Positions 28,401-34,400 of a stretch of DNA of 64,000 nucleotides are shown here, in pieces. The position numbers are program-made. The stretch lies in assembly GCF_048403405.1 (NCBI RefSeq), contig NZ_CP183129.1; one strand, given 5' to 3'. How positions within the stretch are numbered: position 1 is the first letter of the stretch; the number at the start of each line of letters is the position of its first letter. Origin of the DNA: Escherichia coli. Lineage in GTDB: Bacteria > Pseudomonadota > Gammaproteobacteria > Enterobacterales > Enterobacteriaceae.

Positions 28401-31400
28401 GCTGGACGGTGATATTGACTCCCCTTTCCCGGAAACCGCTGGCGTACGGGAGCTGGACACCATCGGGCGGCTGATGGATGCGTTTCGCAGCAGTGTTCAT
28501 GCACTGAATCGCCACCGCGAACAGCTGGCGGCGCAGGTCAAAGCGCGTACAGCTGAATTGCAGGAGCTGGTGATAGAACACCGACAGGCACGGGCGGAAG
28601 CAGAAAAAGCCAGCCAGGCAAAATCTGCGTTTCTGGCGGCGATGAGCCATGAGATCCGCACACCGCTGTACGGTATTCTTGGCACCGCGCAACTGCTGGC
28701 AGATAACCCCGCACTTAATGCCCAGCGTGATGATTTGCGGGCAATTACCGACTCTGGTGAATCGTTGCTGACCATCCTCAACGATATTCTCGATTATTCG
28801 GCTATCGAAGCAGGCGGCAAGAATGTTTCGGTCAGCGATGAACCCTTTGAACCGCGCCCGCTGCTGGAAAGTACCCTGCAATTAATGAGCGGAAGGGTGA
28901 AAGGTCGCCCGATTCGCCTGGCAACAGAAATTGCCGACGATGTACCGACTGCGTTAATGGGCGATCCGCGGCGTATTCGTCAGGTCATTACCAACCTGTT
29001 GAGCAACGCCCTGCGTTTTACTGACGAAGGACAGATCGTTTTACGTAGCCGCACTGATGGCGAGCAATGGCTGGTCGAAGTGGAAGACAGCGGCTGCGGT
29101 ATTGATCCCGCGAAACTGGCTGAAATCTTCCAGCCATTTGTTCAGGTTAGCGGCAAACGCGGCGGCACCGGGCTGGGGCTGACCATCAGTAGCCGTCTGG
29201 CCCAGGCGATGGGCGGCGAACTGAGCGCCACCAGCACGCCGGAAGTTGGAAGCTGTTTTTGTTTACGCTTGCCGTTACGTGTTGCCACTGCACCCGTGCC
29301 AAAAACAGTCAATCAGGCGGTGCATCTGGACGGTTTACGTTTGCTGTTAATTGAAGATAACCCGCTAACCCAGCGAATTACCGTTGAGATGCTGAACAAC
29401 AGTGGGGCGCAGGTCGTTGCGGTAGGAAATGCCGCGCACGCAATAGAGACGTTGCAAAATAGCGAACCGTTTGCTGCCGCACTGGTGGATTTTGATCTGC
29501 CCGATATCGACGGCATTACGCTTGCCCGGCAACTGGCACAGCAATATCCGTCGCTGGTTTTGATTGGCTTTAGCGCTCATGTCATCGACGAAACGTTGCG
29601 CCAGCGTACCAGTTCATTATTTCGCGGGATTATCCCTAAACCGGTGCCGCGTGAAGTGCTCGGTCAGTTACTGGCGCACTATCTCCAACTGCAAGTCAAT
29701 AACGATCAACCGCTGGATGTATCGCAACTCAATGAAGATGCTCAGTTGATGGGGACGGAGAAGATCCACGAATGGCTGGCATTATTTAAACAACATGCCC
29801 TGCCGCTTCTCGATGACATCGGCATCGCCCGCTCCAGCCAGAACAGCGAAAAAATAAAGCGTGCCGCACATCAGCTAAAAAGCAGTTGCTCGAGTCTGGG
29901 AATGCGTAGCGCCAGCCAGCTATGCGCACAACTGGAGCAGCAGCCATTATCTGCCCCCCTTCCACACGAAGAAATTACACGCAGTGTTGCCGCTCTGGAA
30001 GCATGGTTGAATAAGAAAGACCTGAACGCGATTTGAATCAATATCAGCCAGTTAAGAACAACTAGAATAGTGGCATTTGGTATGCAACTTAACGGACTGG
30101 CAAAATCATGACAGAGAAAAGAAGAACCCGCTGGCAGCGGCGGCCAGGCACGACGGGCGGCAAATTACCGTGGTATGACTGGCGCAATGCCACGACCTGG
30201 CGTAAAGCGACGCAATTATTACTGTTGGCAATTAATATTTATATTGCCATCACGTTCTGGTATTGGGTGCGCTATTACGAAACGGCAGGTAGTACGACAT
30301 TTGTCGCCAGGCCAGGAGGCATCGAAGGCTGGCTACCGATTGCCGGTCTGATGAATCTGAAATATAGCCTTGCAACAGGTCAGTTACCGTCCGTCCACGC
30401 CGCCGCGATGCTGTTATTGGTCGCTTTTATCGTCATCAGTCTATTACTCAAAAAGGCCTTTTGTTCATGGTTATGCCCGGTTGGTACGCTTTCTGAATTA
30501 ATCGGCGATCTCGGTAACAAACTGTTTGGTCGGCAATGTGTCCTTCCCCGCTGGCTGGATATTCCTCTGCGCGGCGTGAAGTATTTGCTGTTGAGTTTTT
30601 TTCTCTATATTGCGTTATTGATGCCCGCTCAGGCGATTCACTATTTTATGTTGTCGCCCTACAGCGTGGTGATGGACGTTAAAATGCTCGATTTCTTTCG
30701 CCATATGGGGACAGCGACATTAATCAGCGTGATCGTTTTGCTGATTGCCAGCCTGTTTATTCGCCATGCCTGGTGTCGTTATCTTTGCCCATATGGCGCG
30801 CTGATGGGCGTGGTTTCGCTATTATCACCGTTTAAGATTCGTCGCAATGCCGAAAGTTGTATCGATTGTGGCAAATGCGCAAAAAATTGCCCATCGCGGA
30901 TCCCGGTCGATAAATTAATTCAGGTACGAACCGTGGAATGTACCGGTTGTATGACTTGCGTAGAGTCATGTCCGGTAGCCTCAACATTGACCTTTTCACT
31001 GCAAAAACCTGCGGCAAATAAAAAAGCCTTTGCGTTGTCTGGCTGGTTAATGACGCTACTGGTTCTGGGGATTATGTTTGCGGTGATTGGTTACGCAATG
31101 TATGCGGGTGTATGGCAAAGCCCGGTGCCGGAAGAATTGTACCGACGCTTAATTCCGCAAGCGCCAATGATTGGGCACTAAATTAGCAACAAGCGGAACA
31201 TCACCTCGCACGGGGTGATGTTCACAAAATCACATTATTTTGATTTTGACATCATAACTTTCAAGCCCGGTCATTTTTTCTCGTGCAGTGAAGCGAATTT
31301 CAGAGACTTCTTTCCCTGTATTCTTGTTCAGCTCGGCGATTTTTTGCGCGATAAAGTCAGCGATTTCCGTTTCGGCTTGTTTTTTTAACTCTTCAATATT

Positions 31401-34400
31401 CACTGTTAACCTCTTCTGGTCTTAAAAGACAGCAACACGCCAGTAAGGTGTTGGTTCCCGGTACCCTGGTCAGGTAAGAAATGTTATAAGCCATCTCCCC
31501 GAAAGATTCAATAATCAACAGGTTATCGCTTACTATACATACAGCGTTGAAGAAAAATAAGGCAGATATAAAAAAGGCTCCACGAGGGAGCCTGATATTA
31601 TTTTGTGAAATCCAGCGGCGCATGCTCAGTGCGTATTTGCAGCGCGACGTTATCAAAGGTGATCATCGTCGATTTACAAAAAATACACTTTGCCCCTAAA
31701 GGATTTCGCTCCGTCACATCGAATGCCGATGTGCGGTACTGTGAACCATGACAACATGGACAGCGGAAATGGAGATGTTGAGTAATAACGGCAACCTTAG
31801 AGCGTAACAACGTTCGCTGCCGCGGGACCACGTTGCCCCTGCTCAATAGAAAATTCAACTTTCTGATTTTCGTTCAGCGTGCGGAATTCATTGCTCTGGA
31901 TGGCGGTGAAATGGACGAAAACGTCTTTGCTGCCATCATCAGGAGTGATAAAGCCAAAACCTTTATCTGCGTTAAACCATTTTACTAAACCAGTCATTTT
32001 ATTAGACATATTTTACTTCCTTCATTTTGGGCCTTTCGGCAAACAGGGCTTTAATACAGAAACTACTTAGTGTTCAGGAGAGAGACTCAAAAGAAGGGGA
32101 TAATGCCTGATAATGAGAACTGCTTTAGTAAACTACTTTGTATGCTGTCTGTCTTTCAAACCGACGCAGCTATTAACGCATGATAATTGAGATTAAGCAA
32201 ATTTTATTTTAGCCGTCCGGCGGTCTTAAATATCGCTGGCTTTATTTTATTAACCCCGTATAGTGCAGCGCAGTATATTCAGTAAGGAATTTGTTTGTCC
32301 CGTAAAATGACAGGAATTGTCAAAACCTTTGATCGCAAAAGCGGCAAAGGATTCATTATCCCCTCCGACGGTCGTAAAGAAGTCCAGGTCCATATTTCCG
32401 CATTCACTCCCCGCGACGCAGAAGTGCTTATACCAGGATTACGCGTGGAATTTTGCCGCGTAAATGGCCTGCGAGGACCAACAGCGGCAAATGTTTATTT
32501 GTCTTGATGGAGAGCGCACGCTGGTATGCGTGCTTCATTCACGATTTGCGTAAAACCGGCCAACGAACACATGCCCTGCGCATTTCGCTCTTCACATCCT
32601 GCCAGGGTCAGTTTCACCTCTCCGGGCGGCGTATTTAATGACAGCGGCGTTTTATCACGCATCTGCTGTAAAGTCTGGAAGACCAGCGAAACCTGAATCC
32701 ACTGGCTGTTATCGCTGAGCCGACGCCAGCGTTCAAACACCAGTTCACCCCCTGGCGGCGTGTTATCCGGCTGACCTGGAAGTGTCCAGTTGAGCTCCAG
32801 TGCGCCGCCGAGATTTGCCAGATTAGTATCGTGTCCGGCGATAAACAGCACTGAAGTGGGTAATGTCACACCATACGCCTGTTTTTGCGGTGGATGGGGC
32901 GTCAACGCTGCCATGATCAAATCCAACAACGGGGTGGCGCGGCTGCGGGCAACCTCTGGCGTGCGTTGTAGTAAATAAAATTGCGCGTTATGCAAACTTA
33001 GCAAGGTGTTCCACTGGTGTGAATCAGTGATCCTTCCCCACCCCGGCTCCGGCATTCCTTGTGCCTGTTGCAGGAGAAATATTTCCGTCAGCATTGATGC
33101 GAGGCTTACCGCACCGGTTAATGAAACATTGTCGGCGCTCACCTTGAGTTCCGATGGTAATGCCTGCGTTAATGAACAGCTTTCGTCCTGTTTCTCACGG
33201 TTAAGGCACAAGTTTGATTGCGGGAAATTAAGCACCCGTTCCAGTTCACGAAACGCCGTTTGCCGATGCCCGGTAAAGTCAGCAATTGACCCTCCTGCCC
33301 TGCTGAGGATCGCGTCAGTCACGTTCGCGTTATCCAGTTGGCAAACGCCAGTTTTTAGAGGATTAAATAACGGATCGGGACTGGAGGTATCTGCCTGGGT
33401 ATGTACGGTTATTGCACAGTCAGGTGCCAGCCCGGCGGCGAAGGCTTCGCCTGTTTTACGGGTACGCTCGTCGACATCAGCAATAATCGCGACCTGACCA
33501 GACTGCGGGCAGCCCTTTTTCGCCAGCAATCCGTCGGCTACCAGACGCTGGCGTTGGTAATGTCCGAGATAGGCGATCAGCTCACCACCGCGCGGTGTCA
33601 GCCAACCCAGTTTTACCGGCCAGGTTGGCCATGCGTCTGGGGTGACATCCTGCATCAGTTGCGTGGCCTTGGTTGGTGCACGCACACCATGACGACTGAC
33701 AATCACCACACTTTCCAGCTTCAGTTCCGGCTCACTCTGAGCGAATGTAGATTGCGGGGTTAACGGAATCAGAAGAGATAAAAATGGGATCAAGATCGCT
33801 TTCATCGATATGTTTCCGCTTTTCATATCCGACATTATGGATTGCCTGATGCGACGCTAATGCGCCGCATCAGACTTACGTTCGTTAACTTTTCAATCGC
33901 GGGTCCAGCCATACCAACACAAGGGTGGAGAGCGAACACATCAACAAAATGCCGACGAACCAAAGTAAATACCACATTGTTCCTGCTCCTTAGTACAGCT
34001 CGTTTTCGTTACGGCGGAGAGTTTCTGTCGTCATGCGTCCCCACATTTTGTAGTAGCTCCAGAGAGTGTAGAGCAACACAATGGGCAAAAATATCAGCAC
34101 GATTACCAACATAATGCTCAGCGTCAGCTGACTGGAAGTGCTGTCCCACAACGTCAGGCTGGAGATTGGACTCACGCTTGACGGCATGACAAAGGGGAAC
34201 AGCGTGATGCCTGCCGTGAAAATCACGCCAAATTGCATCAATGACGCCATCAAAAATCCCCAACCCGGGCGACCACGATAAATCGCCATCACCGTCAGCA
34301 ATGGGCAGAAGAACCCCAGCAGCGGGAAGATCCACAAAACGGGCGACTCGACAAAATTATTCATCCAGGCACCAGGTAGCACTGCCACCAGTTTCATTAA

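What the first reader, a model, noticed from the sequence alone, without database searches (positions are those of the whole stretch)
31393..31623. ymcE ORF is compromised by overlapping features
The 76-codon ymcE ORF overlaps the gnsA start region at its 3' end, contains a strong GC hairpin followed by a T-run on the plus strand (GGCTCCACGAGGGAGCC at 31574-31592), and is overlapped by another spurious ORF. This suggests the region may be mostly untranslated RNA structure (gnsA upstream region or cspG-proximal terminator) rather than a bona fide protein gene.
Basis: inference. Interest (0 to 1): 0.2.

Follow-up and report, generated by a model that had tools for sequence, protein, structure and literature searches.

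The report
ymcE: ORF over terminator and promoter
The annotated E. coli gene ymcE is most likely not a conserved protein gene but an accidental open frame lying across the end of ymcF, the cspG-ymcF transcription terminator and the promoter and leader of gnsA, so its "antitoxin" label is doubtful.

Summary
The window is an E. coli chromosome. The finding sits in the cspG-ymcF-ymcE-gnsA cluster, all on the minus strand. The 76-codon ORF (31393-31623), its 11-nt overlap with gnsA and the hairpin (31575-31593) are all real. Two details need correcting. The uninterrupted T-run follows the hairpin on the minus strand, the strand of the genes. The main ORF overlapping the 5' end of ymcE is ymcF, a conserved gene, not a spurious ORF.

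The hairpin is the intrinsic terminator of cspG-ymcF. It follows the ymcF stop in Escherichia, Citrobacter and a phage, shows one compensatory stem change, and published Term-seq puts Rho-independent RNA 3' ends on its T-run.

The rest of ymcE is conserved as DNA, not as protein. dN/dS is 0.7-0.9, against 0.01-0.2 for the neighbours. Variable sites show no third-position bias. The ATG is lost in four of six other Escherichia lineages and the frame is broken in four. There is no Shine-Dalgarno sequence and no homologue outside Escherichia.

The same blocks lie upstream of gnsA or gnsB in Citrobacter and lambdoid phages. Those loci carry an unrelated conserved gene, ynfN, and no ymcE.

This is an annotation matter built from ordinary, known parts, so interest is low.

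The parts
31393..31623 (-). Annotated ymcE (sfa) ORF, 76 codons. Judged to be a non-conserved open frame that overlies the elements listed below.
   Evidence: ORF and annotation. Pfam PF15939 matches only itself. Homologues exist only in Escherichia/Shigella. dN/dS is 0.7-0.9 and variable sites by codon position are 13/8/10. The frame is broken in L003, L006, L007 and L008. There is no Shine-Dalgarno sequence: dG -1.9 against a background of -2.0.
31598..31786 (-). ymcF, a 62-aa CxxC...CxxC small cold-shock protein with an ATT start. Its last 26 nt contain the ymcE ATG, which is the CAT GCG (His-Ala) pair in the ymcF frame.
   Evidence: Annotation. Pfam YmcF-like, E = 6.5e-49. Variable sites by codon position 5/4/26 and dN/dS 0.03-0.2. 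Conserved in Citrobacter and phage.
31797..32009 (-). cspG, the cold-shock gene whose transcript the terminator ends. Its 5' UTR plus CDS match the Rfam cspA thermoregulator (31743-32165).
   Evidence: (157 bits).
31569..31593 (-). Intrinsic terminator of the cspG-ymcF transcript: stem-loop 31575-31593 (AGGCUCC-CUCGU-GGAGCCU), a run of six U at 31570-31575, and mapped 3' ends at 31569/31570. It lies in ymcE codons 11-19.
   Evidence: Scan. Fold z = -2.8. Present 4-8 nt after the ymcF stop in all Escherichia and Citrobacter loci, with a U-A to C-G compensatory change in L016/L017. Term-seq 3' ends at K-12 1051900/1051901, Rho score 0.51 ('No'), intrinsic terminator score 8.09. The Salmonella STnc220 consensus has the same ymcF tail plus hairpin.
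31528..31568 (-). Variable spacer between the terminator and the conserved promoter block. It occupies the position where ynfN lies in Citrobacter and phages. It is T-rich and supplies the Phe-rich 'hydrophobic' stretch of YmcE.
   Evidence: Substitutions cluster here and L007 has a 2-nt deletion. The alignment with ynfN-bearing loci shows the gap.
31483..31527 (-). Conserved promoter-like block upstream of gnsA (GATAACCTGTTGATTATTGAATCTTTCGGGGAGATGGCTTATAAC). The candidate hexamers are -35 TTGAAT (31506-31511) and -10 TATAAC (31483-31488), 17 nt apart. It translates as the YmcE 'core' DNLLIIESFGEMAYN.
   Evidence: Nearly invariant in 8 Escherichia sequences, including ymcE third positions. 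The motif T.TTGAT.ATTG-N5-TT-N6-TAT-N2-TTTA.A is kept upstream of gnsA/gnsB in Citrobacter and in 23 distinct phage sequences. The consensus scan does not flag it, so the promoter role is inferred. gnsA RNA is higher than ymcF RNA in all nine samples, by about 3- to 85-fold.
31457..31465 (-). Indel-prone patch inside the presumed gnsA leader. It is the site of the frame-breaking changes in ymcE.
   Evidence: L003 has a 6-nt deletion plus a stop. L006 and L008 share a 1-nt deletion. L007 has a 1-nt deletion.
31404..31456 (-). Conserved gnsA leader, including the Shine-Dalgarno GAGG (31410-31413).
   Evidence: One substitution in 53 nt across the Escherichia species, while neighbouring genes have dS 0.4-0.6. 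The block stays unchanged in lineages where ymcE is frameshifted upstream of it. It is recognisable in Citrobacter, Franconibacter and phage. SD dG is -6.5. No significant RNA structure was found.
31230..31403 (-). gnsA, 57 aa, GTG start. It overlaps the ymcE stop by 11 nt (31393-31403).
   Evidence: Variable sites by codon position 7/1/18 and dN/dS 0.01-0.12. Ribosome footprints of 43-131 RPKM in K-12.

Best explanation
What is annotated as ymcE is a fortuitous open frame, not a protein-coding gene maintained by selection. It runs through four functional elements on the minus strand.
1. The last 26 nt of ymcF. The ymcE ATG is simply the CAT GCG pair of ymcF.
2. The Rho-independent terminator of the cold-shock cspG-ymcF transcript, which lies 4 nt after the ymcF stop.
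3. A short variable spacer left where the gene ynfN sits in related modules.
4. The promoter region and 5' leader of gnsA.

How it works. Transcripts from the cspG promoter mostly end at the hairpin, 54 nt into 'ymcE'. gnsA is then transcribed from its own promoter inside the ORF, with a predicted start near 31470-31482, and translated from a strong Shine-Dalgarno sequence. That transcript lacks the ymcE start codon and has no in-frame ATG, GTG or TTG.

The frame stays open in E. coli because the underlying regulatory DNA is under strong nucleotide-level constraint.

Shown here: the terminator's position, conservation and in-vivo 3' ends; the absence of a coding signature; the loss of frame in sister species; and the homology of the blocks to gns upstream regions that lack ymcE.

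Inferred: the exact gnsA promoter hexamers and start site, and the loss of ynfN as the historical origin of the arrangement.
For: - **Terminator.** The scan finds it and it folds with z = -2.8. It follows the ymcF stop in 15 loci of Escherichia and Citrobacter (a phage locus shows the same arrangement), with U-A to C-G and G.U variants and a run of six to eight T. Term-seq in K-12 places 3' ends at 1051900/1051901, which is window 31570/31569. These ends are Rho-independent, with an intrinsic terminator score of 8.09.
- **No coding signature.** Variable sites by codon position are 5/3/23 for cspG, 5/4/26 for ymcF and 7/1/18 for gnsA, but 13/8/10 for ymcE. dN/dS against E. albertii is 0.07, 0.06 and 0.01 for the neighbours and 0.82 for ymcE. 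The ymcE 'dS' is 0.084, against 0.40-0.64 for the neighbours.
- **Start and frame not conserved.** The ATG is replaced by AGG or ATA in four of six other Escherichia lineages. The frame is broken by a stop or by 1- and 2-nt indels in four of six, in at least three independent events. cspG (only partly held for L005), ymcF and gnsA stay intact in all of them.
- **No Shine-Dalgarno sequence**.
- **Orphan.** There are 28 clusters among 5.8 billion proteins and 14 hits among 1.84 billion representatives, all Escherichia/Shigella variants apart from one chance repeat-protein match.
- **Within E. coli.** 73% of 5,414 genomes are at least 99% identical across the ymcE interior, against 15% for gnsA and 12% for ymcF.
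- **Same blocks without ymcE.** The conserved blocks recur upstream of gnsA or gnsB in Citrobacter, Franconibacter and 34 phage loci. The gene in that position there is ynfN, which is 74% identical between phage and Citrobacter and shows no similarity to YmcE.
- **Expression data.** gnsA RNA is higher than ymcF RNA in all nine samples, by about 3- to 85-fold. Read coverage downstream of the terminator is at least as high as upstream.
- **Proteomics.** Sfa (YmcE) protein was 'not observed' in a cold-shift proteome although its RNA rose 3.2 log2.
Against: - The ORF is intact in nearly all complete E. coli genomes. The stop allele occurs in only 5 of 5,414. It is also intact in E. albertii and one other Escherichia lineage. 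A young lineage-specific protein would look similar.
- I could not obtain ribosome-profiling or start-site-profiling values for ymcE. The stored table was cut off.
- An ASKA ymcE clone gave a small n-butanol tolerance effect.
- One paper cloned a RegulonDB-listed ymcE 5' UTR, which implies a reported start site upstream of the ORF that I could not inspect.
- Terminators inside genuine ORFs do occur, as the same Term-seq study shows, so the hairpin alone is not disqualifying.
- The consensus scan does not call the conserved block a promoter.
Confidence: 0.8

Rival explanations
1. YmcE is a genuine but young, Escherichia-restricted small hydrophobic protein. It would be translated at a low level from transcripts that read through the cspG-ymcF terminator, for example during cold shock.
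For: The ORF is fixed in E. coli and intact in E. albertii and MOD1-EC7003. RNA covering ymcE rises together with cspG, ymcF and cspI. The ASKA clone has a mild phenotype. Established knowledge, not tested here: CspA-family proteins promote read-through of terminators in the cold.
Against: dN/dS is about 0.8 and is the same in the other frames. The start codon is not conserved and there is no Shine-Dalgarno sequence. The frame is broken in four sister lineages. The protein was not seen in a cold-shift proteome. The openness of the frame is explained by nucleotide-level constraint on the underlying DNA.
Confidence: 0.12
2. YmcE is the antitoxin of a type II toxin-antitoxin pair with GnsA, as in Pfam PF15939/PF08178 and the NCBI product names.
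For: The Pfam and RefSeq names say so. The ORFs are adjacent and overlap by 11 nt. The pair is listed as a toxin-antitoxin system in a modelling paper.
Against: GnsA homologues in Citrobacter, Franconibacter and phages have no ymcE. A terminator separates the ymcE start from gnsA. In the modelling paper, ymcE-gnsA is an outlier with the toxin constantly higher than the antitoxin. Plasmid gnsA expressed alone rescues growth rather than killing, and a gnsA deletion is viable. YmcE has no domain other than its own family.
Confidence: 0.03
3. The hairpin works on the plus strand, as the reader literally wrote, terminating antisense transcription or read-through from yccM.
For: The plus-strand version is also terminator-like by the scan and folds with z = -3.6. 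Some hairpins flanked by A and T runs act in both directions.
Against: The plus-strand tail is interrupted (GATATTATTT). yccM ends about 400 nt upstream, and another hairpin lies between yccM and gnsA, where a minus-strand 3' end maps. The only 3' ends listed at this hairpin are on the gene strand. The hairpin tracks the ymcF stop codon across genera.
Confidence: 0.05
4. Part of the frame serves as a regulatory upstream ORF. A short peptide starting at the internal in-frame ATG (Met44, 31492-31494) and ending on the gnsA start would couple translation to gnsA.
For: The ATG and the preceding GGGGAG are invariant in Escherichia. The stop overlaps the gnsA start as GTGAATATTGA.
Against: This ATG lies between the candidate -35 and -10 hexamers, so it would not be transcribed from that promoter. 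It is absent in Citrobacter and phages. Its length and end vary, giving 10, 23 or 33 codons in Escherichia. The GGAG abuts the ATG with essentially no spacing.
Confidence: 0.06

Closest known systems
Intrinsic (Rho-independent) terminators whose RNA 3' ends map inside annotated ORFs or 5' regions (Term-seq catalogue of E. coli K-12, Adams et al. 2021, PMC7815308)
   Same: A G+C-rich stem-loop plus U-tract. The 3' end at this very site is listed there as 'internal to ymcE, -166 from gnsA', Rho-independent, with an intrinsic terminator score of 8.09.
   Different: That catalogue used an annotation without ymcF and so classed the end as ORF-internal. With ymcF annotated, it is an ordinary end-of-operon terminator 4 nt after a stop codon.
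Lambdoid-prophage module cspI - ymcF-like ORF - ynfN - gnsB (Qin prophage type; phage PhiR63_1 and IMG/VR contigs)
   Same: The same gene order, the same terminator after the ymcF-like ORF, and the same conserved block and leader upstream of the gns gene.
   Different: The phage and most Citrobacter loci carry ynfN (76 aa, conserved) between the terminator and the gns promoter. The Escherichia chromosomal locus lacks ynfN and has the ymcE frame across the junction. YmcE and YnfN are unrelated.
sfa, the 1996 multicopy suppressor of fabA6(Ts), later attributed to gnsA
   Same: sfa is this same ORF. The suppression and unsaturated-fatty-acid phenotypes are reproduced by gnsA alone. From my own knowledge: Sugai et al. 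2001 assigned the effect to gnsA rather than sfa. That paper is not held here.
   Different: That work reassigned the phenotype. It did not address whether ymcE is translated or conserved.
Salmonella sRNA candidate STnc220 (Rfam RF02077)
   Same: The family consensus aligns to 31560-31640. In one frame it encodes a YmcF-type C-terminus (YIRSGQVPLDFRK*), followed by the GCUCC/GGAGC hairpin and a U-run.
   Different: The score is 29.9 bits against a gathering threshold of 60, so it is not a member by Rfam's rule. The resemblance suggests that STnc220 is the 3' end of a ymcF-like mRNA.
Orphan or 'proto-gene' ORFs overprinted on regulatory DNA
   Same: Taxonomically restricted, dN/dS near 1, no Shine-Dalgarno sequence, a composition dictated by the underlying T-rich signals, and a Pfam family built only from near-identical copies.
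   Different: Translation has not been demonstrated here, so even proto-gene status is unproven.

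Membership tests
Intrinsic (Rho-independent) terminator | G+C-rich stem-loop immediately followed by a U-tract on the transcribed strand | tested here: met
   7 pairs (5 G-C), a 5-nt loop, then TTTTTT on the minus strand. MFE is -12 kcal/mol and z = -2.8.
Intrinsic (Rho-independent) terminator | Placed just downstream of the last stop codon of a transcription unit, with this position conserved | tested here: met
   4-8 nt after the ymcF stop in 15 Escherichia and Citrobacter loci and in a phage. Stem changes are compensatory or G.U.
Intrinsic (Rho-independent) terminator | RNA 3' ends at the U-tract in vivo, insensitive to Rho inhibition | tested here: met
   Published Term-seq for K-12, read here: 3' ends at 1051900/1051901, Rho score 0.51 'No', intrinsic terminator score 8.09. 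The K-12 sequence is identical at the hairpin.
Conserved protein-coding gene (YmcE, Pfam PF15939) | Reading frame and start codon kept in orthologous loci | tested here: not met
   The ATG is lost in L003-L006. The frame is broken in L003, L006, L007 and L008. cspG (only partly held for L005), ymcF and gnsA are intact in all.
Conserved protein-coding gene (YmcE, Pfam PF15939) | Purifying selection on the protein (dN/dS well below 1, excess of third-position change) | tested here: not met
   dN/dS is 0.70-0.91 and variable sites by codon position are 13/8/10. The neighbours give 0.01-0.2 with a strong third-position excess.
Conserved protein-coding gene (YmcE, Pfam PF15939) | Ribosome-binding site upstream of the start codon | tested here: not met
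   Anti-SD duplex dG is -1.9, equal to the background of -2.0 +/- 2.5. cspG and gnsA give about -6.5.
Conserved protein-coding gene (YmcE, Pfam PF15939) | Evidence of translation (ribosome footprints, peptides) | not testable with these tools
   The ymcE row is absent from the stored Ribo-seq table. One cold-shift proteome reports Sfa as 'not observed'.
Type II toxin-antitoxin pair (GnsA toxin / YmcE antitoxin) | The antitoxin gene co-occurs with the toxin gene across the toxin's phylogenetic range | tested here: not met
   gnsA or gnsB occurs in Citrobacter (9 loci), Franconibacter (2), a sequenced phage and 34 IMG/VR loci without any ymcE. The upstream gene is ynfN or nothing.
Type II toxin-antitoxin pair (GnsA toxin / YmcE antitoxin) | Both genes co-transcribed from one autoregulated promoter upstream of the first gene | tested here: not met
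   A mapped intrinsic terminator lies 54 nt into ymcE. A conserved promoter-like block lies inside ymcE. gnsA RNA is higher than RNA from the region upstream.
Type II toxin-antitoxin pair (GnsA toxin / YmcE antitoxin) | The toxin arrests growth unless the antitoxin is present | not testable with these tools
   Literature read here: gnsA expressed alone from ASKA plasmids rescues growth defects. gnsA overexpression and deletion strains were both built in UTI89.
Sigma-70 promoter plus 5' leader of gnsA | -35 and -10 hexamers with 16-18 nt spacing | tested here: inconclusive
   TTGAAT-17-TATAAC matches 9 of 12 positions but lacks the T at position 6, so the scan does not list it. The same is true at the homologous site in L020 and L010.
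Sigma-70 promoter plus 5' leader of gnsA | Conservation upstream of orthologous and paralogous genes, independent of any ORF | tested here: met
   T.TTGAT.ATTG-N5-TT-N6-TAT-N2-TTTA.A and the Shine-Dalgarno-proximal leader are kept in Escherichia, Citrobacter and phages.
Sigma-70 promoter plus 5' leader of gnsA | Mapped transcription start site | not testable with these tools
Rfam STnc220 (RF02077) | Bit score at or above the gathering threshold (60) | tested here: not met
   29.9 bits, E = 0.003-0.012.

The most novel reading that the evidence does not exclude
ymcE is a newborn, Escherichia-specific gene. After ynfN was lost from a csp-ymcF-ynfN-gns module, an open frame formed across the terminator, promoter and leader. 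It would be translated only from cold-induced terminator read-through transcripts, and its stop-start overlap with gnsA would couple gnsA translation to cspG induction.
Probability: 0.08. Interest if true: 0.55.

Novelty: already known. Interest (0 to 1): 0.22.

Why it matters
ymcE is carried in every E. coli annotation. It seeds a Pfam family named 'YmcE_antitoxin'. It also makes GnsA an 'addiction module toxin' in RefSeq, and the pair has been used as one of eleven 'well-characterised' toxin-antitoxin systems in modelling work.

If the ORF is only an open frame over a terminator and a promoter, three things follow:
- Those labels are misleading.
- 'ymcE' signals in RNA-seq report the tail of the cspG-ymcF transcript and the gnsA leader.
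- A ymcE deletion would remove the gnsA promoter.

The comparison also shows that the conserved neighbour of gns genes is ynfN, not ymcE. None of this is mechanistically new. It is a correction to an annotation.

Tried and rejected
1. **A conserved RNA structure in the gnsA leader**, for example a hairpin that occludes the Shine-Dalgarno sequence through the ACACCUUAC segment. RNAalifold finds only 3 pairs and no covariation. The E. coli leader folds no better than shuffles, with z = +1.3 and +0.3. Minimum-energy folds differ from one locus to the next. Dropped.
2. **Membership in Rfam STnc220.** The score is below the gathering threshold. Kept only as a resemblance.
3. **Promoter calling by the consensus scan.** The conserved block is not flagged in the window, the phage or Citrobacter. 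An alternative -10 (TATAGT, 31532-31537; TATAAT in E. albertii) is not conserved in phages. The exact promoter is therefore left as an inference.
4. **MAFFT plus RNAalifold on the terminator alignment.** Different loop lengths caused misalignment. Stems were compared by eye from per-sequence folds instead.
5. **Literature.**
   - Sugai 2001, Rock 1996, Sugai 2004, Thomason 2015, Meydan 2019 and Weaver 2019 (mBio version) are not held.
   - Conway 2014, the Weaver preprint and the NAR 2016 paper have no stored supplements.
   - The acid-stress Ribo-seq table lacks the ymcE row.
   - The cap on the number of papers stopped a Cappable-seq look-up.
   - The 'YMCE' hit in a proteomics paper is a mitochondrial peptide, not this protein.
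6. **P0117**, the single distant HMMER hit, is a 4,137-aa repeat protein that matches by composition.
7. **Similarity between YmcE and YnfN.** None was found.

Full report
**Where we are**

Window 31150-32050 is 100% identical to E. coli strain 266917_2 and 98.8% identical to K-12 MG1655. Transferring the RefSeq annotation gives this map:

| Gene | Coordinates | Strand |
|---|---|---|
| yccM | 30108-31181 | + |
| gnsA | 31230-31403 | - |
| ymcE | 31393-31623 | - |
| ymcF | 31598-31786 | - |
| cspG | 31797-32009 | - |
| cspH | 32295-32507 | + |
| appA | 32495-33805 | - |

Rfam recognises the cspA-type thermoregulator over the cspG 5' UTR and CDS (157 bits).

**Checking the observation**

The 76-codon ORF, its 11-nt overlap with the GTG start of gnsA and the hairpin are all present. 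The hairpin is a 7-pair stem (5 G-C) with a 5-nt loop at 31575-31593. It folds better than shuffled sequence, with z = -2.8 on the minus strand and -3.6 on the plus strand.

Two details are wrong. First, the uninterrupted TTTTTT run (31570-31575) follows the hairpin on the minus strand, the strand of the genes. On the plus strand the tail is the broken GATATTATTT. Second, the ORF that overlaps the first 26 nt of ymcE on the same strand is ymcF. It is an annotated 62-aa protein with a CxxC...CxxC motif that matches Pfam YmcF-like at E = 6.5e-49. The two plus-strand ORFs in the region are ordinary chance ORFs, and ORFs of about 60 aa antisense to real genes occur about three times in this 2.2 kb.

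**The hairpin is the cspG-ymcF terminator**

It starts 4 nt after the ymcF stop codon. I collected gnsA loci from one genome per species. These gave six Escherichia lineages (L003-L008), nine Citrobacter and two Franconibacter.

- In every Escherichia and Citrobacter locus that has ymcF, a hairpin followed by a run of six to eight T sits 4-8 nt after the ymcF stop.
- The stem is GGCUCC/GGAGCC in most loci, GGCCCC/GGGGCC in L016 and L017 (a compensatory U-A to C-G change), and has G.U variants in L010 and L012.
- A lambdoid phage has the same arrangement.
- The weak Rfam match to the Salmonella sRNA candidate STnc220 (29.9 bits, below the threshold of 60) is informative once aligned. In one frame its consensus encodes a YmcF-type C-terminus, followed by the GCUCC/GGAGC hairpin and a U-run.
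- The published Term-seq tables for K-12 list RNA 3' ends at 1051900 and 1051901 (+). These lie 54 nt into ymcE and 166 nt before gnsA, have a Rho score of 0.51 ('No') and an intrinsic terminator score of 8.09, where 3 or more indicates intrinsic termination. They correspond to window 31570 and 31569, the last T of the run and the next base.

**The rest of the ORF is conserved as DNA, not as protein**

I aligned the window, K-12 and the six Escherichia lineages and counted variable sites by codon position. I also computed dN/dS against E. albertii.

| Gene | Variable sites, codon position 1/2/3 | dN/dS vs E. albertii | dS vs E. albertii |
|---|---|---|---|
| cspG | 5/3/23 | 0.07 | 0.63 |
| ymcF | 5/4/26 | 0.06 | 0.40 |
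| gnsA | 7/1/18 | 0.01 | 0.64 |
| ymcE (part not shared with ymcF or gnsA) | 13/8/10 | 0.82 | 0.084 |

The ymcE pattern shows no periodicity in any frame. Across the three intact pairs its dN/dS is 0.70-0.91. Its supposedly silent sites change 5-8 times more slowly than those of the neighbouring genes.

The substitutions are patchy. A spacer after the terminator (31528-31568) and a 9-nt patch (31457-31465) vary and carry indels. Two blocks (31466-31527 and 31404-31456) are nearly invariant, including in lineages where the ymcE frame is already shifted upstream of them.

The ymcE ATG is CAT GCG (His-Ala) in the ymcF frame. It becomes CAG GC. or CAT AC. in four of the six other lineages.

The frame is broken in four of six, in at least three independent events:
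- L003 has a 6-nt deletion that creates a stop.
- L006 and L008 share a 1-nt deletion.
- L007 has a 2-nt and a 1-nt deletion.

There is no Shine-Dalgarno sequence before the ATG. The duplex energy is -1.9 kcal/mol against a background of -2.0 +/- 2.5, compared with -6.4 for cspG and -6.5 for gnsA.

**Within E. coli**

The ORF is almost always intact. The L003-type stop allele is in 5 of 5,414 complete genomes. This goes together with unusual nucleotide conservation. 73% of genomes are at least 99% identical to the window over the ymcE interior, against 15% for gnsA and 12% for ymcF, for queries of similar length.

**No relatives**

A word-indexed search of 5.8 billion proteins finds 28 clusters, all from Escherichia or Shigella (one partial sequence is labelled Salmonella). 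Many are length variants or fusions to YmcF or GnsA. An exhaustive HMMER pass over 1.84 billion representatives finds 14 hits. All are near-identical variants or fragments except one compositional match to a giant repeat protein. Pfam PF15939 ('YmcE_antitoxin') is therefore a family of one.

**What the conserved blocks are**

The same blocks lie upstream of gnsA in Citrobacter, and partly in Franconibacter. They also lie upstream of gnsB in phage PhiR63_1 and in 34 IMG/VR prophage loci, which give 23 distinct upstream sequences.

The 80% consensus is T.TTGAT.ATTG-N5-TT-N6-TAT-N2-TTTA.A. After a variable stretch it continues as AGA..A..AGAGG..AA..ATGAA.

In those loci there is no ymcE. Between the ymcF terminator and this block lies ynfN, a 76-aa ORF. 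It is 74% identical between the phage and Citrobacter braakii and shows no detectable similarity to YmcE. Three Citrobacter loci have nothing in that position. So the module is csp - ymcF - terminator - ynfN - conserved block - gns. The Escherichia chromosomal copy lacks ynfN, and the ymcE frame spans the junction. The 'core' of the YmcE family, DNLLIIESF, is simply the translation of GATAACCTGTTGATTATTGAATCTTTC.

I read the block as the gnsA promoter and the downstream part as its leader. In E. coli the candidate hexamers are TTGAAT (31506-31511) and TATAAC (31483-31488), 17 nt apart. This is an inference, because the consensus scan lists nothing there in the window, the phage or Citrobacter, and I could not reach start-site data.

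Indirect support comes from expression data. In a K-12 RNA-seq and Ribo-seq table, gnsA RNA is 184-1323 RPKM with footprints of 43-131 RPKM, while ymcF RNA is 3.6-215 RPKM. In the Term-seq study, read coverage is 468 upstream and 569 downstream of the terminator.

From such a promoter the transcript would lack the ymcE ATG and would contain no in-frame ATG, GTG or TTG. The leader shows no significant or conserved secondary structure.

**Literature**

- sfa (ymcE) was described as a fabA6 suppressor. gnsA alone, expressed from plasmids, gives the fatty-acid and suppression phenotypes.
- From my own knowledge, Sugai et al. 2001 attributed the sfa effect to gnsA. That paper is not held here.
- In a cold-shift study of O157:H7, sfa RNA rose 3.2 log2 at every time point, but the protein was 'not observed' although CspG was.
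- ymcE RNA rises together with cspG, ymcF, cspI and cspB, as expected if reads come from the transcript tail and the leader.
- The toxin-antitoxin label is repeated in a modelling paper, where the pair behaves as an outlier with the 'toxin' constantly in excess.
- An ASKA ymcE clone gave a small gain in butanol tolerance. That shows an effect of forced expression, not native translation.

**Verdict**

The region consists of the 3' end of ymcF, the cspG-ymcF intrinsic terminator, a spacer, and the gnsA promoter and leader. ymcE is an open frame kept open by constraint on those elements.

What remains open is whether E. coli nevertheless makes a little of the peptide, for example from cold-induced read-through transcripts. 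I put that at about one in eight. The antitoxin reading fails on co-occurrence and on operon structure. All the parts are of ordinary, known kinds, and the terminator's 3' end is already in published tables. The value is a correction to the annotation, so interest is low.

Noticed in passing
L009-L012, L014, L015 (about 2062-2294); L020 1598-1828; 27 of 34 IMG/VR loci L021-L054: A conserved 76-aa ORF, YnfN (MKK[VI]IVFFNSEPA...FPSLTGDHK...), sits between the ymcF terminator and the gns gene in Citrobacter and lambdoid phages. It has no Pfam family. It is 74% identical between phage and Citrobacter, so it is the real conserved neighbour of gnsA/gnsB. Its function is unknown.
   Followed up: partly
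L020 1330-1525: Phage PhiR63_1 has an unannotated ymcF-like zinc-ribbon ORF (...HFRCPCCHGSQYRTSSFDV...CIFCKSMMITFDN...) between its csp gene and ynfN, followed by a GGCTCC/GGAGC terminator.
   Followed up: partly
window 31560-31640 (-): The Rfam consensus of the Salmonella sRNA candidate STnc220 reads as the C-terminus of a YmcF-like ORF plus its terminator. This suggests STnc220 is the 3' end of an mRNA rather than a separate sRNA gene.
   Followed up: partly
window 31784-31786 (-): ymcF is annotated with an ATT start codon in K-12 and in the window's twin strain. The codon before it differs (GCC ATT in K-12, GCC GTT here). Longer in-frame TTG starts overlapping cspG also exist, so the true start is uncertain.
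   Followed up: no
window 32495-32507: appA and cspH converge and overlap by 13 nt here and lie close together in the other Escherichia species. In K-12 an IS1 element follows cspH instead. From memory, K-12 also has the gfc/etp/etk cluster there. AppA here ends ...ACALHQDK.
   Followed up: no
window 31506-31517 (-) and homologous sites in L009-L054: The motif TTGAT(T/A)ATTG is kept upstream of gns genes in three genera and in phages more strictly than a -35 hexamer alone would require. It could be a regulator-binding site.
   Followed up: no
window 31492-31494 (-): An in-frame internal ATG (YmcE Met44), preceded by GGGGAG, is invariant in Escherichia. It would give a 33-codon ORF ending on the gnsA start, or 10-23 codons in species where the frame is shifted. 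It is absent in Citrobacter and phages.
   Followed up: partly
H90 (NZ_CP127034.1, strain TW10690); proteins P0013, P0018, P0021: In some E. coli and Shigella genomes the match to ymcE begins inside the hairpin, and the annotated 'cold-shock protein' has a foreign N-terminus. This looks like an insertion at the terminator. Pipelines still call a ymcE-like gene by homology.
   Followed up: no
window 31186-31229: A second hairpin (GAACATCACC...GGTGATGTTC) lies between the convergent gnsA and yccM genes. K-12 Term-seq lists a gnsA 3' end there (1052279), although the minus strand has no clean T-run.
   Followed up: no
locus list: No gnsA locus was returned for E. fergusonii or Salmonella in the one-genome-per-species collection, so the cspG-ymcF-gnsA arrangement is patchy among close relatives.
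   Followed up: no
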